The notes: generated by a model from the letters alone, not told the origin. DNA of 64,000 nt from Blasia pusilla (GCA_050084515.1 CM114271.1:42780001-42844000), one strand, 5' to 3'; shown: positions 4,938 to 58,300, counted from the first letter of the stretch. Program-made: numbers and translations.

Positions 4938-6124
4938 TAGCGTATGCCTTCATAGATCGAGTGCTGAGTCATAACGGCGCACCAACTGAGGTGTTGATAG
5001 ACCAGGGTACAGAGTTCCGTGGGGAGTTTCAAGCCTTGTGTGATCAGGCACCGATCGACCACCGCACTACTTCGCGACATCATCCTGAAGCGGATGGACT
5101 AGCGGAGCCGGTTGTGCAGACGGTGAAGAGAAGATTATGTAAGTATGGCTTGCAGAGAGGTCACCTAGGAGATTGGGACCTAGAGTTTCCGTGGTTGGCG
5201 ATGGGATACACATTCAGCAGGCAGACATCCTTAACGTCTTTCTCAACGTACTTGCTTTTGTATGGCCGAGAGCCAGATTTACCTGCGACCATTCGTCGAG
5301 ATGTTGGTGAGGTGTTGAACCTTGATGACCTTGATGTATAGATGCGAGCATGTTCTCAAAGGGCTGAGTTGTTTTGGAGAGTGATGCCCATGGCGTTTGA
5401 GAACTTGGCGATTGCGCAACATCGGGATACATTGAGGTATGCGACTATTTGAGGAGGTGGTTATCGACCTACTATCGTGAGGTTTGATCAAGGAGACTAT
5501 GTCTACTTGCAGCAGACGGCACCCCTGACCTTGGATGTGACTACAGGGCGCACCATCTTGAGAGTGCATGAGATTTTGCCATCCAGTGTTCTCTTATTGG
5601 AGGGACTTGATGGTATGGTTTGGATGGACCATGTGCGTAGCTGTGCGCCATGTCATCTTCCGAACATTAACGGTATAGTTGATCCGAGCTTAGCAGTAGT
5701 TTCTCTAGGCTTGAGATGTATGTTGTGTGGTTCCGCCTATGGTGTAGCCTCTATGCTAGTCTGTGATGGATGTTCGAGAGGATGGCATATGGCATGTGTG
5801 ATGCCACCTCTCACTAGGGTTCATGAGGGACGATGGATGTGTCCCAAATGTACATAGCGTAGGTAGTTCTACATTCCGACTTGTATCTCTGACATGAATG
5901 ACAAGAAGGCAACTAACGATGGGGCCACATTAGCACCCGGCCTTCTTGGTCTTAGCGTCTGAGAGATGTATGTCATGGTAGGTAGGGATAGATGGTTATC
6001 TGAAGTTAGAGGGACCTAACCACCAGCTAGGGGGGTGATTGGAGATATTTTGGTATTTCTTGTCTTGTTGTTTGGATGCCATGAGTTAGCATGGGATCGT
6101 GCGTGTTTGTGTATGTGCCCGACA
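4938..6124 (+). mobile_element. 5'-truncated copy of the DNMT-Gypsy family: integrase core, PHD finger, G-tract, repeat B
   Basis: Collinear with ~53475-54688. Shows integrase DQGTEF...ADGLAE and an intact PHD (CMLC...CDGC...WHMAC...WMCPKC, ~5717-5854). AGGGGGG at 6029-6035 is followed by repeat B (6038-6124, with a ~40-bp internal deletion) ending CGACA. Confidence 0.9.
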
Positions 6125-16395: not shown

Positions 16396-16684
16396 TAACT
16401 AGTTCAGAATAGAGGAGGAATCATATAGTAAGTCAATTATTGTTTTGACAAAAATTTATGTTGGAAGAAATCCATAAAATGTTTTTTACTCCTCATGATA
16501 GTATAGAAGATATAGAAAGTGCGAACTACTTTTACTAAAATTTGGAATTTCAGTTAAAATCTCCATTTTAATGATTTCCTCACTCTACGTCCCATTAGAT
16601 CCGCTTCCAGATTCAAAGAAGATAGTGGATGCTAGGAGCTCTTAGGTCTTTCCATAGTGAAAAATATCTTCATTTGCTTCCTAT

Positions 16685-16880
16685 AATTCCAAATTTTCGT
16701 ATTGTATTTGTTCGTAGTCATATTTCAATTCTTTTAGGTACTTAGGATACTGTCCTAACCTTAGAGAACCTCAAGCAAACCAAATTCCAAATTTTCGTAT
16801 TGTATTTGTTCGTAGTCATATTTCAATTCTTTTAGGTACTTAGGATACTGTCCTAACCTTAGAGAACTTCAAGCAAACCA
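16685..16880. repeat. 98-bp tandem duplication
   Basis: AATTCCAAATTTTCGTATTG...AAGCAAACCA at 16685 and 16783; one substitution seen. Confidence 0.9.
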
Positions 16881-16904
16881 ACTCCAACTAGCGGTGTTCA
16901 CGGA

Positions 16905-17022
16905 CATGAGTCTCCAACTATGTAAGCAATTATTGATTCTACTAGTTTGAGCATTTGCAAGAGCATGAGTCTCCAACTATGTAAGCAAATATTGATTCTG
17001 CTAGTTTGAGCATTTGCAAGAG
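16905..17022. repeat. 59-bp tandem duplication
   Basis: CATGAGTCTCCAACTATG...TTTGCAAGAG at 16905 and 16964; two substitutions seen. Confidence 0.9.
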
Positions 17023-40249: not shown

Positions 40250-43200
40250 TATACAAGGTTTTTTTAGGCACAAGCTTTGCTCTATATTGTCACATAATGG
40301 AGGTGGTTTTGAGAACCTCACTTGCAGTAATTATGAATCCATTAAGTGGGAGGATGATTTTCGTGGTCAAGTGCAAAGGGAAGCGGAAGCATAGAGGAGG
40401 AAGGACAACTCAAAGAGGGATGGCCATGAAGCACTTGACCACGACAGAGTTGAGGGAGCATGTGGGAAAGTTGAACATTCGATTAAGGAGACAATGTTGG
40501 CTTTTGGCTCTAACATCACAACGAATTTGTGCCTTGAGTATTAGGTGAAAGAAACTAGAAGACATGTTAGGATCCGGAGTAGCTGCAAATAGGAAAATTT
40601 TGAGACAATTTCTCAGGAACATAGTGAATAGACATAGAGATGGGGCATTTGGTGGTAAGGAGGGGTTGTGGGATTTCTCCAAAGATTTGGCTAAGAATTT
40701 GTAAAGAGTGTTCAAGGTTTATTGTTATAATAAAAAAACCAAAGTCTTTTCCCAAGCCATATTTCAGTTTGGGAGTGGGCAAGTTGCCCACTACTTTTAG
40801 GAAAACTTGGGAGGGGAAAATGTGAAGACCTTGAAACGTGACAAAGAAAAAAATACCACCCTTGAGAGTTGGGGTGAGAAAAAGAGATATTCAAAGAGGT
40901 CTCCCGAGTACTACTTGCATCAGAACAACTAATTGGAATTGAGGAAGATATACCTTTAATGTTCGTTGAGGATGAAACAAGGATAAAAGAAAGGCCAATG
41001 TGTATTTGAATCTTTGGAGTCACTTCACCTTGATATATAGATATATGGGTATGCACTATCATGATGGTTATACTACTTTGCACATTTATTTGTCATGTCT
41101 ATTGTTCTTTATTGGGCTTGTGTTCTAACTTGATATTGTTGTTGTGATAGATGGGAGGCTAAATATGAGACTTTGATTGGTTTTTTCCGTCCCTCGGAAA
41201 AACATACATGCAAGTATACATGCTCTTTTGGCTTGGAAGTACTTTTTGGGGAAGATAATAGAGATATGACAAAATTGTGAGTATTTTTTAGAAATATGTC
41301 AAAGGTATGTATGCTACAATAGTACTTGTGAATCCTTTGCATGAGAAAATGACAAAATTGGAGCTTTATGCCACCGCAACTTATAATCGATTCAAAGCAG
41401 ACAAGGTGAGAGAGCATTTGGTGCAACTGAAATCCATTTGGGATAAATATTGCACAACAGATGTTGGTCCTATATTGTGGAATGCTTGTGATGGTGATGC
41501 TCATCGTAGGAAATTAATGATGGAAGATTATACTGATGTGAATGGTTCTTTTCCAAGGTACAAGGTAGGGTGGGAAGGGTGGTAGTACTTTATGTCCATT
41601 CTTCCAAATGGATACTTGTATGGCTTTGGAGATATCACGTCTTTTAGGATAGATCGGTGAGATGTAGTAGAGCGCCTTCATGAGTAGTGGATGACAAGCT
41701 CAATAGGTCGAGGATGACCTGTTGAGGCCCTAGGAAATCTAAGAGAGTAGGTTTCCCCTTCGTTTCGGCTCATTTGGAGCCATATTGAAAAACTTACTAT
41801 TTTAGGTAAGTACCCTTTTGAGTATATGCTTGAGTTTCTATTTTTGGTAAATGGCCTTTGACCTCCTACATCAGGTCAAGAGCCAAGGAGGTGACTTGGG
41901 AGAATAGGTTACCATGGAGAGAGCTTGGGAGAGGGGAGGGGTATACCTCAAGGAGAGAGAGCTTGAGAGCTCATTCTCTCTTTGTTGAACCTCTTGGCAT
42001 GAGGCGGCGGAGCTATGGTACCTTGCCTTGTGAGTGTAACCCAAGCCACTCATTAGGAGAGTGGGTTTGGTTTGACATGAGAGAGAGTGCACACCTTTGA
42101 GAGCTATGGTGTGAGATGGTGTAGAGAGAGATTGGATCTTACTTTATTGGATATATTTTAGTACTTCTAGTCTCGTTGTTTGGATGCCATGAGTTTGCAT
42201 GGGATCTTGCGTGTGTGTTCGGTGACAACAATGCATATTGTGTAGCGATGTGTATGCGCACGACAGAGACCAAGATCCACCACACAATGGCAAAAAGGGT
42301 ATTAACCCATTTGATAGATGTGCTTCTATGCTAGTGTTTGGTGACCAACATGTGTCATTGTCTTACATGACATCTATTTATAACCATTATAAAATTGAGG
42401 AGCATCGCTTGAATTGGGATGATTTGAATAGGACCGACACGCAAAATTGGACTAGCCCACAACGGATAGCATCCATGAGAGTGCAAGCCAGGCTACACCA
42501 CATGTTTGAGCGGCAAGATGTTTGACATAATAGAAGCTTTGACATAATAGAAGCTTTGGGACTAAGTTGTACCTTGAGATTTTTGCAAATTACATTGACA
42601 TTTTCTTCTCTGTTAAGCATGACTTGCAAACTCGTATAGTATTGGCATTTAAGGTATCTTGGTTTCACCATTTATGGAGGCTATGGTTGAGATATGATGA
42701 CCATTCTATGACGGGGAATACGTGATGTGTCACATGAAAAGCCTGAATAGAGACATGATCTATATTCATGCTTTTCATGATATCAACATATGCATGTCTT
42801 GTCATTTAATTGTACTCTTAATTTGTGCATTTTGAGACAAGTTTCCATATTTGCAAGTTCCACTTTACTTGCTAGGATCTCATTGTTGTGAGAATTTTTT
42901 CAACAAGGTAGGTGGCATGAGTGGTCATGAAAGAAACTATGATTTTGGATATCTATTAGATAGTGGAGTAGGAGTGAATCAACTGGTTGGCTTAGAGTAT
43001 GAACCAGAAGGATTAAAGATACGTTGCTTTCATCATAAGCAAGATCATGTTTGGGCAAAATTTCATCCTCTTAGTAAGGGAGATCAGGCTCCAAATCTAT
43101 TTTGATTATTCATTGGTTGGCACTAATGAGCTCATTGTTGATGCTCTTAAAGAAGGGTTGGATGCAACAAAAGAGCTTTTGCGGTTGTTGAACATGTCTC

Positions 43201-44190: not shown

Positions 44191-45018
44191 TGTTTATGTT
44201 TGAGACATGTTGGATTCAATCCTTTTGTGGATTGTGCTTACAATATAGTTGACGCTATTGAACTATGAGTAGGATAGTGGGAGGGAGTAGACTAGGGGGA
44301 TGGGAGATTGGCTGACTGAGCTTCTTGCTAAATTAGGAGTTCAATTCCCCTCTATCATAGTGCAAGGACAATATGTTGGATGTTAATTACGGCCTCTACA
44401 AGTGTCGTGTGTTATAAATTCTTGGTCCTGGCGGCTCTACGTTGTGGTTTGTAGTTTTGGATGGAGAGGCCATCTAGCGGTGACTCTATGCTACGTGTCA
44501 CTACAAGAATGGCCATACTAGGAACTAGATCCTCTAGACCAAGAGCATCCTAGGGCAAGCCTTGCGGCTCTGCTCCCTGACGCCGCGTGCGGAAGTTTGG
44601 CAGCCATCTCCACAATATTCTCACGCTCGATCTGCTTTGCTTCATAATATCGGCCGTAGAGCTAGCACGTTTGGTCTGTTACTTCTTGGTTTGTGCGATG
44701 GAAGTCTCGAGAATGGTACGCTTTGCACTAAACTTCCAAGCTCCCACCCTGACACTCTGCCTGCCAATTGCATTTGCTAGTTTGGGCGCTCAATGTGGTT
44801 TTCCTTTCCATCTCCTTTCATTGACCGACAGAGCTTCTGATTTCATCCGAATCTGCTCTTGCGCTCTTGATCAGTTACCTTGGCGCAAGTCACTCTTGGT
44901 CCTGGACTTTGGATTAGCCCATTTTACATTCAACAACTCTTTGTCTTTGTTACGCTGTGGTGCTCATCAAGTTAGTTATCGCCGCTTGAGCAGTTCCGGT
45001 ATTTTTCGAGATCGCTGC

Positions 45019-45516
45019 TGTCACGTCTTTTAGGATAGATCGGTGAGATCTAAAAGAGCGCCTTCGTGAGACACGCCCAGTAGGTTGAGGGTGACCTGCT
45101 GAGGCCCTTGGAAACCTGAGATAGCAGGTTTCCCCTTCGTTTCGGCTCATTTGGGGCCATATTGAAGAACTTATTATTTTAGGTAAGTACCATTTTGAGT
45201 ATATGATCGACTTACTATTTTTGGTAAGTGGCCCTTGACCTCCTACACCAGGTCAAGAGCCAAGGAGGTGACTTGGGAGAATAGGTTACCATGGAGAGAG
45301 CTTGGGAGGGGTATACCTCAAGGAGAGAGAGCTTGAGAGCTCATTCTCTCTTTATTGAACCTCTTGGCATGAGGCGGCGGAGCTATGGTACCTTGCCTTG
45401 TGAGTGTAACCCAAGCCTTTCATTAGGAGAGTGGGTTTGGTTTGACATGAGAGAGAGTGCACACCTTTGAGAGCTATGGTGTGAGATGGTGGAGAGAGAG
45501 ATTGGATCTTACTTTA
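45019..45516 (+). repeat. Repeat A1
   Basis: Matches 54691-55204 with scattered substitutions and two short deletions. Homology stops at GGATCTTACTTTA and is not followed by B. Confidence 0.95.
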
Positions 45517-45531
45517 CAAAGAGAGAATGAG
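45516..45531 (+). promoter_or_regulatory. Putative self-priming PBS
   Basis: ACAAAGAGAGAATGAG is the reverse complement of CTCATTCTCTCTTTGT inside repeat A (16/16 at 55028-55043 and 41970-41985; 15/16 at 45340-45355). That site lies ~28 bp downstream of a TATA-like GTATACC (45311). Confidence 0.7.
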
Positions 45532-46084
45532 AGAGTGAGAGAGATTTATGGGGGAGCTCGCTGGTCACTCGCATTTTTTGCAGGTTGGGGATTGTGTTCC
45601 CCGTTCAGCGGCTCATGGGAGTGCTCACCGGAGCAAGGACTGCTTTCATTATTCTTTGCATTTGCCGATTTTTCGTGTGGAAGAGTGGTGCGCGGAAGCG
45701 CTGCCCATATTTCTGATAGGGATTGAGTATGGGGGCGGGTTGCCCCATGCTGGTGCTCTCGGGAGCACCATGTAGCTTGCTGATTTGTATTTTTACAGAT
45801 GTTACATTTTCGTTGGGAGAAATCAGCGCGGGAGCGTTGCCGAATTTTGTGTAGGAGAAAGAGACATTGGGCTTTACGACAGTCCCCGTCAGTTTTTATT
45901 GAAATGTCCGATTCTAAATATTTTTTAATTCTGGCGTAGATTGTGAAGCTGTGCACGCTGTGCAATAAACAGTGGACAATTTGGAGTTGCGAGCAAAAAG
46001 TTATGGTCAATCTTGTAAAGCTGCCATTGCTAGGCGATTTTTAGGGTTAAATTGTGCAAACCCTAAATCAGCCGCCACACCGGC

Positions 46085-46270
46085 GGTGGCGGTCGCCATC
46101 ATAGTCACCATCACCGTTCGACGGTCAACCATCACCATCACCGTCGATAGTCAACCGTCATAGTCAACGGTCAACCATCGCCGTCGACGGTCAACCGTCA
46201 TCGTCATCGGTCGGCCGTCACCATCAGCGGTCAACCGTCACTGTCAACGGTCCACCGTCCATTGTCCACC
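46085..46270 (+). repeat. Low-complexity CCGTCA/CGGTCAAC short tandem array in the element's 5' UTR
   Basis: Reiterated CACCATCACCGT, ACGGTCAACC and CCGTCATC motifs. Confidence 0.8.
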
Positions 46271-47060
46271 CTTTGGGTGCCTTTGCCGCCATTACGGAGT
46301 GGAGGGTCTTCCACGACGTTCGTTGATTCCTTGACTTGGGTCGCCACCACGTACTTTGTTTTGGCCGCCACCGTCATCGCAGTTTCTTCATCAACCAGTG
46401 ATGGCATATGACCTCCGGTTATGGTGTTTGAGTTTTGATTTCATGCTGCTATGTTGTGATTGGTAGCCGCTTGATGACGATCGAGTATCGTGCCGCTCGT
46501 GGCCGCACCGCACCGTCTCGATCGCGGAGCCGCACCGTCATTGTGGAGCAGAGTGGGGGATTATTATTGATTGAGGAGGGTATGCCGCCGAGTGCCGCAT
46601 CCCACCATCGAGGGCCGTGCCGTTCGTAGCCGTTCCGTGCCGCCTGCAACGCCGCACCGTTCCGTTGGGACCGCACTATCTATCGAGGAGTTTTGAGCAG
46701 CATCAGTACGGGAGGAGTATGACTTGCTGATTGGAGGAGTTGTCTCCACGATCGAGTTGGGGTCGAGATTTGCAGTTGCTGAGGAGCGACATCGACATGT
46801 GTTCAGGTTACCCATTCTGGTCCTTTACCCTACAGGTGTGAGGGATTCTAGGATTTATTTGGGGATATTGGGTGTGTGGATGCTGAGAGCATCATTTATG
46901 TATGTGGTTTAGGGGACATAGACTTGTGTGGGATGTCCGGAGTTGAAGGTAGGTTGTCGATGAGATGATAGCTTGGTCGATTTGCCGCACCACGCCGCGT
47001 GTTGCCGCACGTTACACGTCTCGGGGAGAGAGAGTGTAGATCAAGTGCCGCATGTTTGGG

Positions 47061-48400
47061 ATGAGTGATTGAGGGATTCCTCACGAAGTTCAGAGTGATC
47101 AGGTGAGAGGGGCACGAGGGTCATCACGCAGTCCGTTCGGGACTTTGAGAGGCGAGGTGGTGAACCCGAGAGTAGCTCTAGAGGTTTTACGCGGAGTGGC
47201 GCGAGGTTCCGAGGGTCTCCACGTGAGGGACCACCTCGACCTCCTTCTGTGTCATCGTCAGACGAGGGGGAGGGTGTAGAGGAGTTTGTGAGCACATTGC
47301 CACACTTTGTGAGTGGTCCTACCAGTTGGGCGTACGAGATGGACGACCGGGGTAGAGGACGCGAGGTTTTCAGTGCGATGAGGCACGATTGAGTTGCACG
47401 ATTTTATAGCAGAGTTTAGGAGTTGGTGCAACTCCCAGCGGGCCAGGAACTCTAGAGAGTTCAACCCATTTACAACATGGAACGGTATGTTCCAGCATTT
47501 AGAGGGGGCGCCCGTGGACGATTACCATGAGTTCTCTCAGAGATATGCATGTGAGGTCGAGGCGTGGAGGCTCTACTATGACCCACATTATGTGTCATGG
47601 ACGGAGCCGTTCCCAGATGAAGAGGAGGAGTCGGGAGAGGCTACTTCCTCTTCCACTAGTGACGTTTTAGGAGGGGTCACTCGCACGGGAGCACTTGCAC
47701 CGTCTAGTCGGGTTCGTCCCAGGTTCAACCCTGTGGTTGAGTTCTTTGTTGAGTTGAGGGCGAGCTACCAAGGGGTACGGATGGAGAAGTTGCGGAGCAT
47801 CCACGACTTCCAGAGGCGCCCGGGTGAGAGTTTGCGTGAGGCTTACACTCGCTTGCGCCGGTTGATCAACGTCACTCAGGGGGTGACAGAGACTCAGGCT
47901 ATCCAGTCATGGTACGCGATGCTGGACCAGACCCTACGGACACAGGTGTGGGAGGGGGTGATTCTTATGAACACCTCCCCTACGTTGAGAGATGTTTTTA
48001 GGACCGTTGAGAACATTGAGCGCAACATGGCGGAGGAGATCGTAGCCACCATGGGTTTTGGGCGAGAGCAGTCACGATTGTCTGCACCACCCGTGCAGCA
48101 ACGTGGACTCCGAGATAGGTCGACTGTGGCACCACGAGCTCAGGGAGGATATCGGGAGACCGTGCCACAGAGACCTACGCCTTCATATGCGGCTCAACAG
48201 TAGCTGCCTACTATTACTTGTTGGTCATGTGGTGGAGCCCATCATCAGCGCGATTGCACTCGTTAGGGTCATGGACGTGTGCCTCAGCATGGAGGAGGAG
48301 ATGGTCTTTGCACAGGAGGTTATCAGTGTGACTATAGTCGAGGTATGGTCATACACACGCCAGGTGTTTCAGTTTACATCCTGAGTTACGTCCGGACCGA
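47061..48400 (+). pseudogene. Gag (retrotransposon gag domain + zinc knuckles)
   Basis: ATG 47061 is in frame with ORF 47394-48203 (FFVELRASYQG...DFQRRPGESLREAYTRLRRL). CWSCGGAHHQRDC at ~48219-48257, plus a second degenerate knuckle. In-frame stops present. Confidence 0.8.
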
Positions 48401-49089
48401 GGGCCAGAGAGGGCACCAGAGCGAGTAGCCGGTCCGGGTGCACCTAGAGATCGTGCACCAGGTGGTCCCGTTGGGGGACGAGGAGCTGGAGTTGCCCGAC
48501 AGGGTGGTGGAGCTGCTCATGGAGGAGGTAGAGTACCACCACCTAGACGCGCCGAGGGAGATGCCGGACGTGAGGCTGGGATGGTCGCTCGAAAGACCTC
48601 TGAGGAGCGATTGCCGCTATGGCATTGAGGTTACCCGATGCCGGATCCGTGGCATCGACATCATATGGAGCATCCAGAGATCTCGAGGATCTTGGATGGA
48701 TGTGTGGGGTTGCCCAGATGGAGGCCACCGCAGTTGTGACGCGTGGAGCAGCCGCAGAGTTGGATCCACAACGAGGGGAAGCCAGAAGACAGACTAGGCT
48801 TCCTCAGTCTTTCATGTTGTCCGAAGCGAAGAGGATCCCATCGCTGGGTCCTCATCAAAGTTCCTCGAGAGTTGGTGATGTTATTGGTGTGCAGGCACGA
48901 AGGGCAATGGGAGAAGCGAGTGCAACGACTCCTATTGTTGATGCTCAGGAGGGGCATGTGTCGAGCACGTTGTTGGGGGCGGCCACCGTTGTGTACCGCA
49001 CTCCTTTATTTTCTGCTTCGATGTTATGACGTTGGGGGGTACGCCCGCCAAGGCTTGGCTGGCTGGCCGCTTCACTATGTGAGCGCGAG

Positions 49090-49640
49090 TTGGAGTTCTG
49101 CATCACGTTCAGAGGTGATTGCAGAGGAGGTGATGGACCTGCCCTTGAGCGGATGCTCGGGCCGCCCACGTCGATTCATGGTAGGTCGGTCGCTAGGATG
49201 GCGGAGATGCCCGCTAGACCCGCGATAGAGCGTGCCATGGCTTCTCCTGGTGTTGTGTTGCTGGATAACCGAGGAGAGGTCTTCCAATTGGTGAGTCCTG
49301 GAGGTAGAGCTTTTAGTCCGCAGCGTGTCTTGTTGGATTCAGGAGCGCAACCCTTGATGTTGGGGAAAGTGTCATTCAGAGGATTGGGCTTGACGAGAGC
49401 CGATGTGGAGCGTTGTCCATTTCGGATATAGACATCCTTGGGTGGAGCGAGTACCACACAGTATATCACCCGACAGGAGGTCGTGGTGAGGATTCGCCCG
49501 GGACATCCTACAGATGAGTCCGTGGTGCGCGCCAAGGTGATAGTGACTGATGCAGAGTCCTACGACGTCTTGGTTGGTAGAGCAGTGTGTACCCGATGGG
49601 GTTTTCCCTGGATTATTGGGAGGAGTCAGCGTCCTACAGA
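49090..49640 (+). pseudogene. Aspartic protease
   Basis: RVLLDSGAQPLMLG catalytic motif (~49324-49365) and YDVLVG C-terminal motif. Confidence 0.85.
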
Positions 49641-50039
49641 CCAGGATGGCAGTTAGGTGATGGGCGCCTTAGCTCATTACCCGTTCGATTCACAGGTGCA
49701 GTGATCGAGCAACGGCCAGGAGAGATGGCGACCTTAGCAGCATTTAGCAGTGCCATCACTTGGCCTAGTGATTTGATTGAGGGACATGTCCATGCAGAGG
49801 ATACTCCCGTTCCTGACATTTCTATGGAGAGGAGTGTTATGGTAGCTGCATCATTCCGTGGAGGAGAGGTGCCGCTGTGGGGCTCGACTGAGGAGCTTCA
49901 ATGATTGGCAGATGAGCACGTGCAGACCGCGTGGAGCGAGGCGTTTGCACCAGAGCGTGACGGGTCTGAGGAACCCGAGGTAGCAGGGAGTGCTACGATG
50001 ACACCCTTGGATACCACAACCATTGTGTGGTGTACCCCG

Positions 50040-50975
50040 GAGGAGGGTATTTGAGTGTTAGATCTCTTTGGAGGGATTAGCACCGGGTTAGCTGCTGTTT
50101 TGCAGGCAGGAGTGCGAGTACAGCAGTACCTGTCTGTGGAGAGTGATGATGTTGCACGACGCGTCTCACTATGACATGTGTCGCAATTACGCCTACGTTT
50201 TCCCGACTTATTGTCTGCGTCCGCAGTACAGGGGTACCAGAGTTCCCTACCGAGGGATATTTTGTTGTTGGGGGCGCAGGACTTAGAGCGGGTAGTGACC
50301 ATTGATTTGGTCATTTCCGGTTGGCCATGTCAGGGCCAATCAAGTGCTGGACGAGGCAGCGGGTTGGCTGACACTCGGTCCAGGTTGTTTTGGGAGATGT
50401 TGAGGGTCTTACGGCAGTTGCAGGAGCACCAGTCTCGTTCTCCAGCCTACATTCTGGAGAATGTGCCGATCTTAGGAGACTCCAGGTCACGGATCATGAC
50501 GAGTGCTCATCAGGTGCGTGCCTGGATCGGCCTAGCAGTGTTCTTGGATGCGGCGAGTGTAGGTTCTAGAGCCCATCGCCCGCGTCTATGGTGGGCCACT
50601 TGGTGCCCCATGCGGTGTTATGGAGGGCGTATGCGAGAGTGGAGCGCCCCTCCCCTTTGTTAGTGGATTCCATTTCGATCCGGTCGCCGATCACAGCAAG
50701 CGGTGAGGCACGATGATCGACCACCGCCGTTGGTCAACAGTAGTCAGGGTAGGCAGCGCCGTGGCGCGCCTTGCCCACGTTTGTGAGTTTTCCCGCTTCC
50801 TATGCATACAAGGAGGCCGGTCCTGGCTTGGTTTGGGATGACCAAGTTCAGCGGTTGGTGGAGCCCAACGCCGACGAGAGAGAGTGAGCGATGGGATTTC
50901 CCATAGGAGTGACGGCAGTACCATCATCATCGGAGAGGCATCACGACGCCATGTCTTGGGTCAGCGATGGACTGA
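50040..50975 (+). pseudogene. C5 DNA cytosine methyltransferase domain (DNMT3-like) within pol
   Basis: Motif I VLDLFGGI (50055), II SVE, IV GWPCQG (PCQ 50325-50333), VI ILENV (ENV 50457-50465), VIII AHRPRLWW, IX/X ERE*AMGFPIGVT...RRHVLG (~50877-50960). In-frame TGA stops at 50052 and 50172; indels after ~50600. Confidence 0.9.
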
Positions 50976-51339
50976 ATCGCTTGACATGGATCCTCGGCCT
51001 TGGGAGTGGGCGAGGCGTCGTATGAGATCGCGACAGATCAGCCGGTTGTGTTGGTGAGCCCCATGCCTACCGAGACGGTGGAGGCAGTGGCTGGGGGCGA
51101 GACCCGAGGAGATATACGCACCAGGGGAGATCGGGAGAGACAATCTTGGACTTCTTGGGATGTTTTGCAGGTACGCAAGGAGATGATAGCCACAACATTG
51201 AGCATGGTTTCGGGCACTGCACGTGGAGGAGATTAGAGTTTGCAGTTGGCTGCAGGAGAGCGGCCGAGTGTTGTTGTTCGAGACGGGGTTGCACCATAGC
51301 AACCACCGATACCCGCGCCGGAGAGTCCTATCGTAGTCA

Positions 51340-52780
51340 CGATGGAGACTTGGGAGCCAGATATGGGCCCTAAGTTGACAGGAGGAGAGCGGCGCCGAAT
51401 ACATCAGTTCCTCAGGAGTTATAGGAGCTGCTTTCCGTTTAGCATGGAGGATTTGGGTACGTTGAAGGGAGCGAGGATCCGCATTGATTTGTCGAGTGAT
51501 ATGCCGATCTTCCGACGACCCTACAAGTACAGTGATATGGAGAGGGCTCTGATTCAGAGTAGGAGCCAGGACTTGGTTGGAGCAGGACTAGTGGAGATGT
51601 CGCATGGGGAGTATGCATCTGCCACTCTCATGCCCGCCAAGAAGGATGTGCATGGCAACTGGACGGATAGGCGGATGTGTGGGGATTACCGACCTATGAA
51701 TCGGCAGACGAAGTCCGATAGGTATGCCATGCCCACCCCTGAGGAGATCTTTGATGCGATTGGTCACGCAAAGGTCTTGATTCATTGATTTATGAGCCGG
51801 ATACCATCACCCCGATCAGATTGGAGGACAAAGTAAGACGGCATTTTGGGGCATCGATCCTCACGGGAAGGATTGTTTGTACCAGTGGCGGTTCTTACCA
51901 TTTGGGTTAAAGAACGCCCCGGCTGAGTTTCAGAGGGTCATGGATAGGATCTTGGCTGGTCTGGATTTTGCTAGGTGTTATATTTATGACATCGTAGTCT
52001 TTAGCGCCACGGTTGAAGAGCATGAGCAACATCTAGAGGAGGTGTTTCGACGATTGCAATTACATGGGCTGAAGCTACATCCGGGCAAGTGCAAGTTCTT
52101 CTACAACCAGATTGAGTACTTGGGTCATACAATATACCCAGGGGACCTTGGTGTTCAGCAGACGAAGGTAGAGGCTATCTCACGCATTCCACGCCCTACA
52201 GATGTGAGCCGTGTTCGCACATTCATGGGATTGGCGAACTTCTATTGGCGATATGTCAAGGGATTGATTCGATTATGGTCACTGACCTTGCTGACCAAGG
52301 TGGATCACGAGTGGCACCGGGGATGAGCAGGAGCGAGCATTTCAATTGCTCAGGACAAAGTTGGCGTCCGCACCCATCTTGAGGAGACCGATCGGGCGTC
52401 CTTTCGATTTGCACGCATTGGAGCATGTTGGGGCTTGGAGCGGTGCTCACCCAAAGCATGATGATGAGGGTAGAGAGTTCGTGGTGGCTTACGCTAGCCG
52501 CTCGAACAACGTTGCAGGCAAAGTATAGCTCGTATGAGGGTGAGTGCTTGGTGCGGTGTGGGCATCGCGCATTTCAGGTGTTACTTATTCGGCAACCCTT
52601 TACCATCATCATCGATCATCAACCACTGAAGTGGTTGATGGAGTCCGACAAGCTTGGGGAAGCTTGCCGGATGGGCTCTGTTGTTGCAGGAGTATGATTT
52701 TCAGGTGGTACATAGACTGGGGACGCTCAACCAGGATGAGATGGGTTGAGTCGTAACCCATGCCCGAGTCAACGAGATGC
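51340..52780 (+). pseudogene. Reverse transcriptase and RNase H
   Basis: YASATLMPAKKD...RRMCGDYRPMN...YAMP; LPFGLKNAPAEFQRVMD; YIYDIVVFS (YIDD mutated); EYLGH; GLGAVLTQ, VVAYASRS, YSSYEGECL, DHQPLKWL. Confidence 0.92.
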
Positions 52781-53099
52781 GGATCGGAGCTCGATGGCAT
52801 GGAGAGAGTGATGAGGAGTCGGTGCCAGGATGGCACGCGTCAGCCTATTTAGGCATGTTGGCTATGGAGAGCCAGAGTGTGGAGACTTCGATGGCGAGGT
52901 CTAGTGGAGAGTCCTTGGATCCTGAAACCAGTGAGGACACGACAAGTGGCCGAGATATTCATGATGATGGAGTAGTCTTAGAGTACCTTCAGATCTTGGC
53001 GACCTTGCAAGCACCATGGATGCTAGAGAGCGGGATCGGATCCTACAACGGGCCAGACGGTTTCGTTGGGAGGGGACACATGTTTTGAGGGTTTGGGAG

Positions 53100-54381
53100 G
53101 ATGGCAGAGTACGCGTAGCGCCGCATCCTTCGCAGAGAGCACGACTAGTGCAGCATGCCCATGAGGAGTTGGGTCACTTTGGGGTGAAGCGGACGATGCG
53201 GCTTGCTCCATTCAGTATTGGTGGCGAGGCATGCAGATTGGCGTTGAGTTTGTTTCAGGTGCATGGTGTGTGATCGGGTCCGAGCATCGTTCAATGCTCC
53301 GACTCCTCCGATTGCATCCATTACCGATCATGGGCTTAGGGTATAGATGGAGTTTGGATTTTGCGGGACCTTTGCCCTTGACGGAGCATCACAATCGTTA
53401 TGTGTTGGTGATGGTCGAGCACTTCTCAAAGTGGATCGAGTTGGTTGCATTGCCTGACAAAGCGAGTGAGGGAGTAGCTTATGCCTTCCTTGACAGAGTT
53501 TGAGTCATTATGGTGCACCGGTGAGGTGTTGATGAGACAGTGGTACCGAGTTTAGCGGTGAGTTCAGGCCTTGTGTGATCGGCGATCGACCACCGCCGCG
53601 ACCGCAGCGAGATCATCCCGAGGCGGATGGATTAGCGGAGAGAGTTGTCAGACGGTGAAGAGGGGTTTACGCAAGTATGGCTTGCAGAGAGGTCACCTAG
53701 GAGATTGGGACCTCGATTGCCATGGTTGGCGATGGGATACAAATTCAGCAGCGAGGCATCCTTAGCGTCTTTTTCACCGTACTTGCTACTTTATGGCGAG
53801 AGCCGATTTACCTCTGACCATTCGTCGAGATCTTTGGTGAGGTTTGGACCTTGATGACCCAGATGTATGGGTGCGAGCATGTTCTCAAAGGGCTGAGTTA
53901 TTTCGGAGAGTGATGCCCATGGCGTTCGAGAACTTGGCGATTGCACAACATCGGGATACATTGAGGTATGCGACTATTCGGGGTGGTGGTTATCGACCAA
54001 CTATCCGGAGGTTTCATCGGGAGATTATGTCTACTTGCGCAGACGGCACCGACGGCGTTGGATGTGATCAGAGGGCGCACTATCCGAGAGTGCGTGACAT
54101 TTTGCCATCGGGTGTTCTCTTGCTGGAGGGACGCGATGGTATGGTATGGAAGGATCATGTGCGTAATTGTGCGCCATGTCACCTTCCTAACATTGATGGT
54201 ACAGTAGATCCGAGCTTAGCAAGAGTTCCGCATGCTTGCGTTGTATGTTGTGTGGTTACGCCGGTAGTGCGCCACGATGCTAGTCTGTGATGGGTGTTCG
54301 AGAGGATGACATATGGCATGTTTGGCGCCACCTCTCACTAGGGTTCCTCGGGGGCGATGGATGTGTCCCGGATGTACCTGA
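53100..54381 (+). pseudogene. DDE integrase with C-terminal PHD finger
   Basis: HHCC zinc-binding region (HAHEELGHFG...C..C); WSLDFAGPLP...LVMVEHFSKW; GTEF; ADGLAE. PHD at ~54240-54378 (frameshifted here, intact in the 5717-5854 copy). Confidence 0.9.
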
Positions 54382-54551
54382 GTAGGTAGTTCTACATTCC
54401 GACTTGTGTATGTGACATGGATGACAAGGAGGCGACTAACGATGGGGCCACATGAGCACCCGGCCTTCTTGCTCTTAGCGTCTGAGAGATGTATGTCATG
54501 GTAGGTAGGGATAGATGGCTATATGGAGTTAGAGGGACCTAACCACCAGTT

Positions 54552-54560
54552 AGGGGGGCG
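54552..54560 (+). promoter_or_regulatory. Putative polypurine tract preceding B1
   Basis: AGGGGGGCG immediately before B1, conserved as AGGGGGGTG at 6029-6037. No purine tract precedes the TG of A2. Confidence 0.6.
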
Positions 54561-55333
54561 ATTGGAGATATTTTGGTACTTCTTGTCTCGTTATTTGGAT
54601 GCCATGAGTTAGCATGGGATCATGCGTGTTTGTGTTTGTGTTCGGTGACAGCGATGTATGTTGTGTAGCGATGTGTATGGGCACGACAGCTGTCACGTCT
54701 TTTAGGATAGATCGGTGAGATCTAATAGAGCGCCTTCGTGAGTAGTGGAGGACACGCCCAATAGGTCGAGGGTGACCTACTGAGGCCCTTGGAAACGTGA
54801 GATAGCAGGTTTCCCCTTCGTTTCGGCTCATTTGGAGCCATATTGAGGAACTTACTATTTTAGGTAAGTACCATTTTGAGTATATGATCAACTTACTATT
54901 TTTGGTAAGTGGCCCTTGATCTCCTACATCAGGTCAAGAGCCAAGGAGGTGACTTGGGAGAATAGGTTACCATGGAGAGAGCTTGGGAGAGGGGAGGGGT
55001 ATACCTCAAGGAGAGAGAGCTTGAGAGCTCATTCTCTCTTTGTTGAACCTCTTGGCATGAGGCGGAGGAGCTATGGTACCTTGCCTTGTGAGTGTAACCC
55101 AAGCCTCTCATTAGGAGAGTGGGTTTGGTTTGACATGAGAGAGAGTGCACACCTTTGAGAGCTATGGTGTGAGATGGTGGAGAGAGAGATTGGATCTTAC
55201 TTTAATTGAAGATATTTTGGTACTTCTTGTCTCGTTATTTGGATGCCATGAGTTAACATTGGGTTCATGCGTGTTTGTGTGTGTATTCGGTGACAGCGAT
55301 GTATGTTGTGTAGCGATGTGTATGCGCACGACA
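54561..55333 (+). repeat. 3' terminal B1-gc-A2-B2 array
   Basis: B1 (54561-54688) and B2 (55205-55333) are ~128-bp direct repeats flanking A2. The B1/A2 junction GACAGCTGTC (54685-54694) is a perfect palindrome. Confidence 0.95.
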
Positions 55334-58300
55334 CTGCCGCTCACAATTAGGTAAGCTTTCTTAGCTTTCGCTTATGTTCTTATTATCTTTACTCGTTGCT
55401 TGTGTATTTTTACCTTACTGATTACTAGATTACCGAAACCGGACGATTCCGAGAACTTCTACCTCGCCCAACTCTCTTCTTCTTGTCGCGTAGAAATTCC
55501 CAACCCCGAGGAGATGTTAACGTGAGAGCCTCACCGTTACATCATCCGCCGGATGCTCAGTCGTGCCTTTGGTTGGGGAAACAAATTCTTCATGTGCCCT
55601 TCGTCAAGTGGATTTCTCTGCCTACTCCAGTCTCCAATCTCTACCATGTCTTTCTCATCTCAATTTTTCCGACCGCAATAAATTCCTCAACATGTCACCT
55701 GCATCCCTGAAATCTTCAGACATTTTTCGCAGCCTTATCTTTCCACCACCTTCTTGTTGTCCCTGAAATCCACCTCGTACTGTACGATCTCCGTGAACAC
55801 GGTGTTTGCATTGTTGGATGGCATATGCATACGGTGTGTCAATAGATCTGAAACTGACATTAGAGATTGCATCCTTCCCCTTCTTGTTTCCCTTCCATGG
55901 CGGCTATTTCCAAGGGACCTCAACATTTTTTGACTATAATCGTGCTCGGAGCCGCCAACTATTTAGTCCATTTTCTTTGTTTGAGCCTTATGCTTCATTA
56001 ATGTACCAGATACGGCAAGCAATTGCGTTATGCTCTACCTCAAAAGCATTTGTTCTAAATAGGGAACTAGACCAACTTCGTAGAGATATGCCCCACTTGA
56101 GTGATGCGAGCTTGCATCACCATCTTTCTAAGTATTCAATTAGCCCCCAGATCCCAGGAAGCCCTGCATGGCATCGAAGGTATTTGAAAGATTTAAAGGC
56201 TTTGGCGCACAAATGGGGAATGCCATATTTTTTCTTAACACTAACTTCTAACAAAGTATCTGCAACAAGATGGAATGAATTTTATGATATTGAAGCTATA
56301 CTTGCCAAGTTTAACCCTGACTTCACTTGGCGTGATGCTCCAACTGAGTGTGCACTATTATTCCATACCAGACTCCACTCTTTTATATCTTCATTCAGTT
56401 TTTTAGGCCCACGTATCTTGGGAAGAGTTGCAGAATATTTGCTTTGTTATGAATTACAGGGCAGAGGGAGTTTGCATTGCTATATGATTTTATGGGTCTA
56501 TCCTGATGATGTTGGACGAATTACGTCAGAAATATGTTCATATATTCCATGTCCTGACCCCAATCTACATCTGCTCCATCCTAGATCTACCCTCAACCCA
56601 AGTGAAGAACTATTAAGCCTAGTGCTTAAGAAGATATCAAAGACTTGGAATCAAGAGTAGGTTTTGAAGACCGTACTACTAACTATCTCCAAAATGATTT
56701 GGGATCGGGATGTCACCCCTACTAACAGCAACAACGAGTATTGATGTTGTTTGTCTTGATGTAGAAGTTGTTACAGCTCATTTTGCTTTCAACATTCCGA
56801 TCCGTGGTGATATTCCATCTATGCATGCTACTCCAGATCCCTACATGAAACTTAAGGTTGCCCATGTGATTGTAGTTGATGATTTCTCAATGCTGACAAC
56901 AAAACTCTTGCAGATTATAGTCATGCGAATAAATGAAGTTGCAAAGTGCAGTAGCCAAAATCTGCTCGAAGGAAAGCTCCTCATCCTTGTAGGCCACCTA
57001 TGCCAGCTTTCACTGTTTGCAGCCACAAGGTTTCCAATTTATGTCATGGCTACCATATTACTTCCTCTAATTTCCTAAAGAGTGCACTCTCCTTTGAATT
57101 GGTTACACCTGTACGACATTCAAGTGATCCTCTTTATAATCAATTCCTAACTTCTATCAGATCTGCTATTCCAGCACAGGCCCAGATTGATGACAATCTA
57201 GGACCCTGTTTTGTGTCTCGGAATGAAGCTACAGATTTCATCACTTCTAACACAACAATCATTTGTAATCATTGTGATGATGTGGCCATGTTCAATCTCC
57301 TATCCCTCAGAAGAATTTTTGGAGATGCTTCTATTATCAAAGTGGACGTTATTTCTTACGCTCCTCCACAACCAGAATTTGATATTTGGTTAAATGATGA
57401 ATCTTTCCACCAACTACCATTCGTTGCGCTCCACTGTCGAGTTATGATTACATCTAATGTTAACTTGAAGTGCAAGGCAGCCAATGGATCTCTTGGTAGT
57501 GTTTGATCTTATCTATGAGAACAATGAGTTGGTTTATATTGTTATCATTCTTCAATCCAATGGACATTCTATCAAAATAGGTAGAATTTCTCTACTCTAA
57601 GGTATGACTCGTATCGTAAATATATCAAGAGGTCATTTCCACTTATATAAGGCTATGCCATGACTGCACACAAAATTCAAGGTTCCAATGTTGAAGGTCG
57701 TTATTTTCTGGTTGTTCAGTCAATTTTTGCATTGGGATTAGCCTATGGTATGCTATCTAGGGTAAAAAATAGAGATCTATTGCGCATATTAGGATCATTG
57801 GACCCTAATGGCTTCCTAGTAATTGGTCAGCGGGTTGCAAGTGTCTCTTAATTTTGTATTGTTACATTTTATGTAGCTTTTATATAAGCATATCGGCCAG
57901 AGCCAGCTCAAGCAAGGGACGTAGTGTCAGATCTGTTCCTCACTCACAACAAAATGAGTAGTTTCCTTTATATGACCATGAACCGAATCCAACGATTATG
58001 AGATCTTCAATCTCAGCGATAGAATCAAACCCCCACTCAATCACCAATACAGGTTAATCCCTATGCCTCCCTTCCCTCATTTTCTATATTGTCTTTTGTT
58101 GCTGTATCTAATTCATGACCCACATGTGCCCTCAAGTTACCTGGACTTTGCTAGCATGATACTTTCAGACATTCAAACACAGCCAAAGGAATTCAAGCCC
58201 AGGTTCATATTTCCCACAAAAAACAGATATAATACGTGGACAACCTAGGGATGGTTCCTGCCTTTTGGGAGCATGGTGTGACGGGAAGGCAGATCCAGAG

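What the first reader, a model, noticed from the sequence alone, without database searches (positions are those of the whole stretch)
45019..55333. DDE-integrase Gypsy element with split direct repeats (A-ORFs-B-A-B) instead of LTRs
Seen: the 5' end has only repeat A (~500 bp, starts TG), while the 3' end is B1-gc-A2-B2 (ends CA). A 4-bp TSD (CTGC) brackets the whole unit. Pol encodes an HHCC/DDE integrase, and I found no tyrosine recombinase. Established: A1...B1A2B2 split direct repeats are the hallmark of tyrosine-recombinase retroelements (PAT, TOC1, Ngaro), which use circular intermediates and generally lack TSDs. Ty3/Gypsy elements normally have two complete LTRs. Inference: this Gypsy lineage has converged on the split-repeat architecture while keeping a DDE integrase. 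I do not know of a description of this combination, but cannot search.
Basis: partly seen in the sequence, partly recalled or inferred. Interest (0 to 1): 0.93.

Follow-up and report, generated by a model that had tools for sequence, protein, structure and literature searches.

The report
Methylase-carrying Gypsy retrotransposon with permuted repeats
This is a decayed copy of a plant (bryophyte-type) Gypsy retrotransposon that carries a DNA methyltransferase. Its odd A…B-A-B repeat layout is real and shared by the whole family, has been noted before in an alga, and looks like the result of the integrase cutting inside the repeat rather than at its ends.

Summary
A1 is 45019-45516, B1 54561-54688, a 2-bp 'gc' spacer follows, then A2 54691-55204 and B2 55205-55333. 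The ends are TG…CA and a 4-bp duplication (CTGC) flanks the unit.

No tyrosine recombinase appears in any of six frames.

The layout is not a one-off. The window also holds a solo A+B (duplication GAGA) and an internal-end-B fragment. Related metagenome loci show A directly followed by the internal region at 20 distinct 5' ends, none with B there. They show PPT-B at all 15 distinct 3' ends, and B-2 bp-A at six of them.

The combination is already in print: de Mendoza 2018 says the Klebsormidium Gypsy-Dnmt3 element has DIRS-like repeats with Gypsy domains.

My addition: the polypurine tract abuts B, and a Tf1-like self-primer site abuts the end of A. So the repeat made by reverse transcription is B-NN-A, and integration occurs at an internal …ACA-NN-TGT… site. 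The integrated copy is therefore a permuted form, and the variable A→B joint is the joined cDNA ends. This is an inference, not a demonstration.

The parts
45015..45018 (.). left copy of the 4-bp target-site duplication (CTGC)
45019..45516 (+). repeat A1. It starts TGTCACG and holds the promoter, R and U5 of the repeat as reverse transcription defines it
45311..45316 (+). TATA-like motif (GGGGTATACC context), 29 nt upstream of the self-primer segment
   Evidence: The same GGGGTATA(A) motif sits at the same offset in the metagenome loci
45340..45353 (+). predicted 5' end of the transcript, the self-primer segment (CTCATTCTCTCTTT). It is perfectly complementary to 45518-45531
45518..45531 (+). 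predicted primer-binding site for Tf1-like self-priming. It starts 2 nt after the end of A1
   Evidence: The controls (A2->B2 and solo contexts) give only 7-8 bp, G-U pairs included
46105..46259 (+). 20/26-bp tandem repeats in the long (about 1.86 kb) leader between the PBS and gag
47382..48260 (+). gag-like ORF fragment with a CCHC knuckle at 48219-48236 onward
   Evidence: There is no Pfam hit. It is assigned by position and the CCHC motif
49030..49656 (+). aspartic protease region (LLDSGAQ at 49330-49350)
   Evidence: Motif only, no Pfam hit
50061..50660 (+). Dnmt3-type C5 cytosine DNA methyltransferase domain, with motif I DLFGGIS, motif IV GWPCQG and motif VI ILENVP
   Evidence: (PF00145, 8.3e-12)
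51300..52323 (+). reverse transcriptase. The active-site motif reads YIYD in this copy
   Evidence: RVT_1 1.1e-21; Ty3 RT 2e-24
52383..52694 (+). RNase H
   Evidence: RT_RNaseH 1.7e-08
52968..53500 (+). integrase: H2C2 zinc domain and the start of the DDE (rve) core, in two frames
54274..54375 (+). C-terminal PHD finger
   Evidence: (PF00628, 5e-07)
54526..54560 (+). conserved block ending in the polypurine tract (…TTAGGGGGGCG). It directly abuts B1
   Evidence: It is nearly identical in the metagenome loci
54561..54688 (+). repeat B1, which ends CACGACA. It is the start of U3 of the repeat as reverse transcription defines it
54689..54690 (+). 2-bp spacer 'gc' inside the …ACA-NN-TGT… site, the proposed internal integrase site
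   Evidence: The spacer is 2 bp in 5 of 5 intact junctions in other loci
54691..55204 (+). repeat A2
55205..55333 (+). repeat B2. The A2->B2 joint at 55204/55205 is the proposed joined cDNA ends
55334..55337 (.). right copy of the target-site duplication (CTGC)
41633..42265 (+). solo A+B repeat of the same family, flanked by GAGA/GAGA
4938..6117 (+). 5'-truncated copy: end of integrase, PPT, then B with an internal deletion, then unrelated AT-rich DNA with no A after B

Best explanation
The locus is an old, inactive copy of a Gypsy-DNMT3 LTR retrotransposon of bryophyte type. Its domain order is gag, protease, Dnmt3-like methyltransferase, RT, RNase H, DDE integrase, PHD. The split repeats are the normal integrated form of the family.

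Proposed mechanism, shown or strongly indicated by sequence:
- Plus-strand synthesis is primed at a conserved G-rich polypurine tract that abuts B.
- Minus-strand synthesis is self-primed as in Tf1. The first 11-17 nt of the transcript, which starts about 29 nt after a TATA box in A, pair with a site that begins at the end of A.
- So the repeat that reverse transcription builds at both cDNA ends is B-NN-A, not A-B.
- Integration happens at the start of A and the end of B, with a 4-bp duplication.

Inferred steps:
- The integrase does not use the cDNA termini. It cuts at the internal near-palindrome …ACA-NN-TGT… between B and A. Nicks 3' of each CA there leave the usual recessed CA-OH ends with 2-nt 5' overhangs.
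- The outer cDNA ends (end of A, start of B) are joined to each other, either before the cut (a 2-LTR circle) or after it (host end joining).
- The result is A-PBS-internal-PPT-B-NN-A-B. This form can again be transcribed into a normal R-U5…U3-R genomic RNA.
- Copies of the form A-internal-B and solo A-B are either dead-end products or later B×B and A×A deletions.
For: Identity. Pfam finds DNA_methylase, RVT_1, RT_RNaseH, Integrase_H2C2, rve and PHD on the + strand and nothing on the - strand. The best solved relative of the RT piece is Ty3 RT. For the DNMT, a 68%-identical relative (P0001) was searched and its best solved relatives are DNMT3A/3B/3C. Among DNMT homologues 13 of 25 carry an organism name, all bryophytes: Marchantia 9, Calypogeia 3, Sphagnum 1. 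An intact 2811-aa relative has the same domain order.

Family-level layout.
- The window holds a solo A+B with TSD GAGA and an internal-PPT-B fragment.
- In 80 metagenome loci found with the DNMT, A is followed by the leader in 23 loci, which are 20 distinct sites. B lies between them in 0, and B lies directly upstream of A1 in 0.
- The PPT is followed by B in 17 of 18 3' ends printed. The eighteenth is truncated before the PPT.
- Of 15 distinct 3' ends, 6 continue B-NN-A and 9 run into unrelated DNA.
- Complete A1…B1-NN-A2-B2 is seen in L023, L060 and L064.

TSDs. Split-repeat copies: CTGC, AAGG, TCTC and AATG (for AATG, the start of A1 is damaged). A-internal-B copies: TGTT, TACA, TGTG and GGTA/AGTA. 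Solo copy: GAGA.

Priming.
- The window has a 14-nt perfect complement between 45340-45353 and 45518-45531.
- The metagenome loci have 10-24 bp at the same position.
- In all, 12 of 21 5' contexts show this, and the two control contexts give only 7-8 bp.
- The paired sequences differ between the two lineages but stay complementary.
- The minimum-energy folds pair the 5' end with the PBS (z -3.2 and -4.4).
- A TATA-like motif lies 26-31 nt upstream of the complementary segment in both lineages.
- No complementarity of 9 nt or more exists between the B1/A2 junction and the 5' region.

Junctions. The B-to-A spacer is exactly 2 bp in the window and in 5 of 5 intact junctions (GC, GC, GC, AC, AC, AT). 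The A-to-B joint varies. It carries a 1-nt indel in the window family and CAG or CAA in three loci. It carries a 17-nt filler in L064, and in L039/L044 it carries 10 nt identical to the PBS (table 5c, 67). That pattern is expected of joined cDNA ends.

Precedent. Retroviral integrases cut palindromic LTR-LTR junctions (PMC1905944, PMC1180852, PMC4372172; I saw the search listing and abstract starts only).
Against: - No unintegrated cDNA or circle was observed. The cutting and joining steps are inferred from integrated copies only.
- A 2-LTR circle has two identical internal sites and should also give the isomer A-B-NN-A-internal-B. That isomer appears at 0 of 20 distinct 5' ends, so the simple circle version needs an extra bias.
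- A-internal-B copies outnumber split-repeat copies, 9 to 6, and their origin is unresolved.
- The transcript start is predicted, not measured. The only RNA start pile near it (45308, 6 molecules) lies 32 nt upstream of the prediction.
- 9 of 21 5' contexts lack a good primer-PBS duplex. All of those are visibly decayed copies.
- Every copy examined is broken, so nothing shows that a copy with this layout is currently mobile. RNA of the family is present in the same species label.
- The host of the metagenome loci is not known.
- I could not compare with the Klebsormidium element itself.
Confidence: 0.62

Rival explanations
1. One-off rearrangement. The family has ordinary A+B LTRs at both ends. 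This copy lost B from its 5' LTR and gained a B fragment before its 3' LTR, or the locus is misassembled.
For: Only one full copy lies in the window. Short contigs from public runs do not bridge the junctions of this particular locus (table 8).
Against: The same layout occurs in independent contigs: L023, L060 and L064 are complete, and L004 and L020 are partial. 0 of 20 distinct 5' ends have A+B before the leader, and 0 of 15 distinct 3' ends have the PPT next to A. A second copy in the window shares the PPT-B junction. The layout is published for the Klebsormidium relative.
Confidence: 0.02
2. DIRS-like end restoration with a DDE integrase. The transcript lacks the outer part of A1 and of B2. 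Reverse transcriptase restores them by copying the internal B1-NN-A2 block as a bridging template, as proposed for DIRS/PAT/Ngaro. This gives a linear cDNA that starts at the start of A and ends at the end of B, and the integrase inserts it by its true ends.
For: The repeat layout is the one for which such models were devised (PMC7192593 and PMC8969392, passages seen). TSDs at the start of A and the end of B fit integration of true ends.
Against: The PPT abuts B and the self-primer site abuts the end of A. Ordinary strand transfers would therefore produce ends at the start of B and the end of A. No primer-like complementarity or purine tract sits at the B1/A2 junction. The A-to-B joint varies, including a filler and a PBS remnant. 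A templated copy should not vary in that way.
Confidence: 0.15
3. The mobile form is a canonical element with B-NN-A LTRs at both ends that inserts by its true ends. The split-repeat, A-internal-B and solo copies are all secondary rearrangements of it.
For: PPT and PBS positions define B-NN-A as the LTR.
Against: No copy with B upstream of A1 was seen at 20 distinct 5' ends. Four-bp TSDs sit exactly at the start of A and the end of B in nine insertions. Secondary rearrangements would not create those.
Confidence: 0.05
4. A tyrosine-recombinase element (PAT/Ngaro/TOC-like) whose recombinase has been lost or is too decayed to see in this copy.
For: The split direct repeats look like those of such elements.
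Against: No PF00589 hit appears in six frames at E<=0.1. The intact 2811-aa relative has H2C2+rve and no recombinase. The RT is of Ty3 type. TSDs are present at nine insertions, whereas such elements are described as lacking them (PMC8969392, passage).
Confidence: 0.01

Closest known systems
KnitGypsy-Dnmt3 of Klebsormidium nitens, 'Gypsy-DNMT3 of streptophytes' (de Mendoza et al. 2018, PMC5890265; also named in bioRxiv 10.64898/2026.05.21.726589)
   Same: A Gypsy-type Pol with a Dnmt3-type methyltransferase inside it. The repeats are described as A-coding-B-A-B 'like DIRS' while the domains are 'typical of Gypsy' (Fig. 4c legend and section 9). The host is a streptophyte.
   Different: The host group differs: the named relatives here are liverworts and a moss. 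I could not compare sequences or domain order with the Klebsormidium element. Two domain orders exist among relatives, and I do not know which one Klebsormidium has. The main text I read gives no TSD, PBS, PPT or mechanism for the repeats. The supplements were closed.
Tyrosine-recombinase retroelements with split direct repeats (PAT, TOC1, Ngaro, VIPER)
   Same: The A1-internal-B1-A2-B2 layout. An internal B-A block holds the sequence of both outer ends.
   Different: There is no tyrosine recombinase. The element has a DDE integrase, a Ty3-type RT and 4-bp target-site duplications. It is not a member.
Tf1/sushi group and plant Tcn1 clade of Ty3/Gypsy elements, which self-prime (Neumann et al. 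2019, PMC6317226, passages; Lin & Levin 1997 recalled from its reference list)
   Same: There is no tRNA-type PBS. The predicted 5' end of the transcript is complementary to the sequence next to U5. Tcn1 is reported from mosses and club-mosses.
   Different: The phylogenetic position of this RT was not tested. This element has a PHD finger and no detected chromodomain. It carries a DNMT, and its LTR is permuted in the integrated copy.
Canonical Ty3/Gypsy LTR retrotransposons
   Same: PR-RT-RH-IN order, H2C2/DDE integrase, TG…CA ends, a 4-bp TSD and a PPT.
   Different: The integrated copy does not have two complete identical LTRs. The integrase sites lie inside the repeat that reverse transcription makes.
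Cleavage of the palindromic LTR-LTR junction of 2-LTR circles by foamy-virus and HIV-1 integrase (PMC1180852, PMC1905944, PMC4372172; listing and abstract starts only)
   Same: A DDE integrase cuts an internal CA…TG palindrome formed by two LTR ends, and the product can integrate.
   Different: In retroviruses the junction arises by ligation of the cDNA ends, carries 4 bp and belongs to a side pathway. Here the CA-NN-TG site is templated inside every LTR, carries 2 bp and would be the main route.

Membership tests
Ty3/Gypsy (Metaviridae) LTR retrotransposon | Ty3-type RT with RNase H, in the order PR-RT-RH-IN | tested here: met
   RVT_1, RT_RNaseH, H2C2 and rve occur in that order. Ty3 RT is the best solved match at 2e-24.
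Ty3/Gypsy (Metaviridae) LTR retrotransposon | DDE (rve) integrase with an H2C2 zinc domain | tested here: met
   The hits are weak in this decayed copy: rve 5.5e-05, below Pfam's cut-off, and H2C2 1.1e-04. They are clear in the intact relative P0111: rve 1.5e-11, H2C2 2.5e-13.
Ty3/Gypsy (Metaviridae) LTR retrotransposon | Two complete identical LTRs flanking the internal region | tested here: not met
   The 5' end has A only and the 3' end has B-gc-A-B. The same holds in related loci.
Ty3/Gypsy (Metaviridae) LTR retrotransposon | Short target-site duplication (4-5 bp) and TG…CA termini | tested here: met
   CTGC here, and eight further 4-bp TSDs, one of them matching at 3 of 4 bases.
Gypsy-DNMT3 (KnitGypsy-Dnmt3 type) | Dnmt3-type C5 methyltransferase domain inside Pol | tested here: met
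   PF00145 at 8.3e-12 with motifs I, IV and VI. For a 68%-identical relative, the closest solved proteins are DNMT3A/3B/3C.
Gypsy-DNMT3 (KnitGypsy-Dnmt3 type) | A-coding-B-A-B repeats together with Gypsy domains | tested here: met
   The feature is as worded in PMC5890265, Fig. 4c legend.
Gypsy-DNMT3 (KnitGypsy-Dnmt3 type) | Sequence relatedness (RT/DNMT clade) to the Klebsormidium elements | not testable with these tools
   No Klebsormidium sequence was at hand and the supplements were closed. The named relatives are bryophytes only.
DIRS/PAT/Ngaro tyrosine-recombinase retroelements | Tyrosine recombinase (Phage_integrase) ORF | tested here: not met
   No hit in six frames at E<=0.1. None in the intact relatives.
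DIRS/PAT/Ngaro tyrosine-recombinase retroelements | Split direct repeats A1…B1-A2-B2 | tested here: met
DIRS/PAT/Ngaro tyrosine-recombinase retroelements | No target-site duplication | tested here: not met
   4-bp TSDs are present. The feature is as stated in PMC8969392.
Self-priming (Tf1/sushi, Tcn1-like) Gypsy elements | The 5' end of the transcript is complementary to the PBS next to U5, and there is no tRNA-type PBS | tested here: met
   The test is in silico only: 14 nt in the window and 10-24 bp in 11 loci at a fixed position, with a TATA box about 29 nt upstream. The transcript start was not measured.
Self-priming (Tf1/sushi, Tcn1-like) Gypsy elements | RT/IN phylogeny within the Tf1/sushi-Tcn1 clade; chromodomain | not tested
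   No reference set (REXdb/GyDB) was available. Pfam finds a PHD finger and no chromodomain.

The most novel reading that the evidence does not exclude
This streptophyte Gypsy-DNMT3 lineage integrates not by the ends of its cDNA but through a templated 2-bp-spaced CA-NN-TG site inside each LTR. The true cDNA ends are joined to each other by a circle or by host end joining. Split direct repeats would then be the general footprint of 'integration at a site other than the cDNA ends'. The footprint would have been reached with a DDE integrase here and with tyrosine recombinases in PAT/Ngaro. It would be the first retroelement in which integrase cutting of a junction-like palindrome is the main pathway and not a side reaction.
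Probability: 0.45. Interest if true: 0.8.

Novelty: new member of a known kind. Interest (0 to 1): 0.58.

Why it matters

What is worth following up is the explanation of the layout. The positions of the polypurine tract, of a self-primer site that differs in sequence between two lineages but stays complementary, of the TSDs and of a variable A-to-B joint together say that the integrase works at an internal palindrome.

If that is right, it gives a natural system in which a DDE integrase uses a junction-type substrate. It also gives a mechanistic bridge between LTR elements and split-repeat tyrosine-recombinase elements, and a reason why LTR-finding software will mis-annotate or miss this abundant bryophyte family. 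The family is also a handle on why a retrotransposon carries a Dnmt3 and a PHD finger.

Tried and rejected
- No whole genome is held for this window, so no census of copies in the host was possible.
- Sequencing runs: no RNA holder was listed by the index. I laid two DNA contig runs and two RNA raw-read runs of the same species label.
  - The DNA contigs are short (mostly under 200 nt here), and none shown bridges the flank/A1, B1/A2 or B2/flank junctions. The assembly of this exact locus is therefore neither confirmed nor contradicted.
  - Only 15 of 157 joints were shown. The joints that would test for B-to-leader or PPT-to-A were not among them.
  - RNA depth falls from 111-168 in bin 54842-55258 to 2.9-4.3 in bin 55259-55675. 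That fits transcripts ending near the A2/B2 border, but B1 and B2 can each take the same reads, so I give it little weight.
- I looked for an intact copy among the 80 loci. The longest open frame is 957 aa, so none is intact.
- I searched for an alternative primer site or purine tract at the B1/A2 junction and found none.
- A MAFFT alignment meant for a formal covariation count put the window's primer segment out of register with the others, so I did not run the count of structure pairs. Within the metagenome loci the duplex shows decay and not compensatory change. The only 'covariation' is between the two lineages.
- A tRNA-type PBS was considered for TGGGGGAGC at 45549. I dropped it because it lies 30 nt from the end of A and no tRNA genes were at hand (0 tRNAs in the window).
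- Literature searches for a prior mechanistic account used 'split direct repeats' + Gypsy + integrase (8 papers, none on a DDE element) and KnitGypsy/Gypsy-Dnmt3/DNMT3/Marchantia/retrotransposon (15 papers). I found no description of PBS, PPT or TSD for these elements. The supplements of PMC5890265 could not be read and may hold such details.

Full report
**Observation.**
- A1 (45019-45516) matches A2 (54691-55204) at 94.2%, and B1 (54561-54688) matches B2 (55205-55333) at 94.6%.
- Nothing resembling B follows A1.
- A begins TGTCACG and B ends CACGACA. B1 and A2 are separated by 'gc', and CTGC flanks the whole unit at 45015-45018 and 55334-55337.

**What it encodes.** Translation is broken by many frameshifts and stops.
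- Read in three frames with X at stops, the + strand gives these Pfam domains: DNA_methylase, RVT_1, RT_RNaseH, Integrase_H2C2, rve and a C-terminal PHD finger. The - strand gives nothing. No Phage_integrase domain appears at E<=0.1 in any frame.
- Motifs place a CCHC knuckle at 48219, the protease DSG at 49330, and methyltransferase motifs I, IV and VI at 50061-50468. The RT active site reads YIYD in this copy.
- The RT piece is closest to Ty3 RT among solved structures. For the DNMT I searched with a 68%-identical relative, and its closest solved proteins are DNMT3A/3B/3C.
- Relatives that carry an organism name are all bryophytes. For the DNMT that is 13 of 25 hits: Marchantia 9, Calypogeia 3, Sphagnum 1. 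The RT search gives similar top names.
- An intact 2811-aa relative has the same order, DNMT-RT-RH-IN-PHD. Two more distant relatives have RT-RH-DNMT-IN-PHD.

**Is the layout a one-off?** No.
- The window holds two more members. One is a solo A+B at 41633-42265 flanked by GAGA/GAGA. The other is a 5'-truncated copy at 4938-6117 with the same internal-end/PPT/B junction followed by unrelated DNA.
- No genome is held, so I scanned metagenome contigs with a DNMT alignment. This gave 80 loci, the best 80 of 100 confirmed among 217 pattern matches. Their host is unknown and their DNMT is 52-69% identical to the window's.
- Self-comparison of the 22 loci with the longest flanks found distant A-type repeats in six. 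B1/B2 pairs appeared in the three of those that extend far enough (L023, L060, L064).
- I mapped L023's A, leader, internal end and B onto all 80 loci, and 40 had hits. A fuzzy motif map followed.
  - A runs straight into the leader in 23 loci. These are 20 distinct sites, because L016/L023, L027/L029 and L046/L048 share flanks. B lies between A and the leader in none, and B lies directly upstream of A1 in none.
  - The PPT is followed by B in 17 of 18 3' ends printed. L013 breaks before the PPT.
  - Of 15 distinct 3' ends with sequence beyond B, six continue B-NN-A: L004, L020, L023, L060, L064, and L074/75 with a 29-bp deletion across the junction. Nine run into unrelated DNA: L029, L030, L037, L040, L042, L043, L062, L071, L077.
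- Four-bp duplications flank the start of A and the end of B. In split-repeat copies they are AAGG (L023), TCTC (L064) and AATG (L060, whose A1 start is damaged). In A-internal-B copies they are TGTT (L029), TACA (L043), TGTG (L037) and GGTA/AGTA (L071).
- Reads from public runs of the same species label show that the family is very abundant and is transcribed on the + strand. In expressed copies the PPT is again followed by a B-like sequence: 75 reads in one RNA run carry that loose end at 54561.

**Known or new?** The combination is in print.
- De Mendoza et al. 2018 (PMC5890265; I read section 9 and passages) describe KnitGypsy-Dnmt3 of Klebsormidium nitens. Its Fig. [quoted passage not shown]
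- A 2026 preprint refers to 'streptophytes (Gypsy-DNMT3)' (one passage).
- In the text I could read I found no TSD, PBS, PPT or mechanism for these repeats. The supplements were closed. My searches for a mechanistic account found none.

**How it most likely works.** Four sequence facts constrain the mechanism.
1. A roughly 35-nt block ending in a G6 polypurine run abuts the first base of B. It does so in the window, in the second window copy and in all informative loci, and it is nearly identical between the two lineages.
2. The end of A is followed by a self-primer site.
   - In the window, 45340-45353 (CTCATTCTCTCTTT) is perfectly complementary to 45518-45531, which starts 2 nt after the end of A.
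   - In the metagenome loci a different sequence at the same place (up to AACATAGTTCTTTGAGT) pairs with ACTCAAAGAACTATGTT, which starts at the last base of A.
   - A duplex of 10-24 bp at this fixed position is present in 12 of 21 5' contexts. The A2-to-B2 and solo contexts, used as controls, give only 7-8 bp.
   - The folds pair the 5' end with this site (z -3.2 and -4.4).
   - A GGGGTATA motif lies 26-31 nt upstream of the complementary segment in both lineages. The segment is therefore the predicted 5' end of the RNA.
   - This is the arrangement of Tf1-type self-priming, which Neumann et al. 2019 predict for the moss and club-moss Tcn1 clade (passages).
3. TSDs show that integration uses the start of A and the end of B.
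4. The two internal joints behave differently.
   - B-to-A always has a 2-bp spacer: GC in the window, then GC, GC, AC, AC and AT in five loci.
   - A-to-B varies. The window family has a 1-nt indel between copies (reads, table 5c: TTT depth 195, TTTA depth 64.5). L020, L060 and L023 carry CAG or CAA. L064 carries a 17-nt filler. L039/L044 carry 10 nt identical to the PBS.

From facts 1 and 2, ordinary strand transfers would build the repeat B-NN-A at both ends of the cDNA. From fact 3, the integrase does not use those ends. It uses the near-palindrome …ACA-NN-TGT… inside the repeat. Nicks 3' of each CA there would leave standard recessed CA ends with 2-nt 5' overhangs.

The integrated order A-PBS-internal-PPT-B-NN-A-B is what results if a cDNA with two B-NN-A repeats has its outer ends joined and is opened at the internal site of the left repeat. 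Fact 4 fits a templated B-NN-A and an A-to-B joint made anew by end joining. PBS remnants and filler are what one expects of such joints. Retroviral integrases are reported to cut palindromic LTR-LTR junctions (listing and abstract starts only). The integrated form can again give a normal R-U5-PBS…PPT-U3-R transcript, whereas A-internal-B copies cannot.

**What does not fit or remains open.**
- A circle has two equivalent sites, and the other isomer (A-B-NN-A-internal-B) was seen at 0 of 20 distinct 5' ends. Either the site nearer the left cDNA end is preferred, or cutting precedes joining, or this detail is wrong.
- A-internal-B copies (9 of 15) may be direct products of cutting both repeats or a 1-LTR circle. 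They may also be B×B deletions. Sequence cannot tell these apart.
- The transcript ends are predicted, not measured. One small RNA start pile lies 32 nt upstream of the predicted start.
- All copies seen are broken.
- The locus itself could not be bridged by the short public contigs.
- I could not compare with the Klebsormidium element.

**Rivals.** The one-off or misassembly reading is excluded by the independent loci. A hidden tyrosine-recombinase element is excluded by the domains and the TSDs. A canonical B-NN-A…B-NN-A mobile form is not supported: no such 5' ends were found, and the TSDs sit elsewhere. A DIRS-like end restoration that yields true A…B cDNA ends remains possible. It is disfavoured by the PPT and PBS positions, by the absence of priming signals at the B1/A2 junction and by the variable A-to-B joint.

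**Verdict.** The claimed novelty of the combination is not upheld. The element is a new, decayed, bryophyte-type member of the published Gypsy-DNMT3 kind. The permuted-LTR and internal-integration-site reading is my inference from integrated copies. It is testable, and it is the part that would interest specialists.

Noticed in passing
proteins P0111 versus P0082 and P0109: DNMT-bearing Gypsy polyproteins come in two domain orders. One is DNMT-RT-RH-IN-PHD, as in the window. The other is RT-RH-DNMT-IN-PHD, in relatives whose RT is only 37-39% identical. This suggests either a domain move or two captures of Dnmt3.
   Followed up: partly
window 27090-30024 (+): Ty1/copia pol (RVT_2 4.5e-77, rve, gag_pre-integrs, SH3_retrovirus). 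The window is a nest of transposable elements.
   Followed up: partly
window 55797-56657 (+): An ORF with a Helitron_like_N domain (5.3e-19) lies about 460 bp downstream of the element. The element may have inserted into or beside a Helitron.
   Followed up: no
window 15653-17022: Four adjacent tandem arrays with 59-98-bp units, 86-98% matches.
   Followed up: no
window 45019-55333 versus flanks: GC is about 55% and CpG observed/expected is 0.83 in the element. The flanks have about 40% GC and 0.46-0.51. Differences between this copy and reads of other copies are dominated by C>T and G>A, as expected for a methylated repeat family.
   Followed up: partly
window 54526-54560 and the matching block in L004-L077: A roughly 35-nt block ending in the G6 purine run is almost identical between the window element and the metagenome loci, although their proteins are only about 60-65% identical. 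This is a strongly constrained cis element.
   Followed up: partly
L023 1835-1858 and equivalents: In the metagenome loci the self-primer segment is itself part of a small palindrome (TTCAAAGAAC-ATA-GTTCTTTGA). It could form its own hairpin as an alternative to pairing with the PBS.
   Followed up: no
L039 12410-13306 and L044 4923-5819: A rearranged 3' region: an inverted A fragment, then a half A, 10 nt of PBS sequence, then B. It is the same locus in two contigs.
   Followed up: partly
window 2026-2646 (-): An ORF with a weak DUF4100 match (1.6e-05, below the Pfam cut-off).
   Followed up: no
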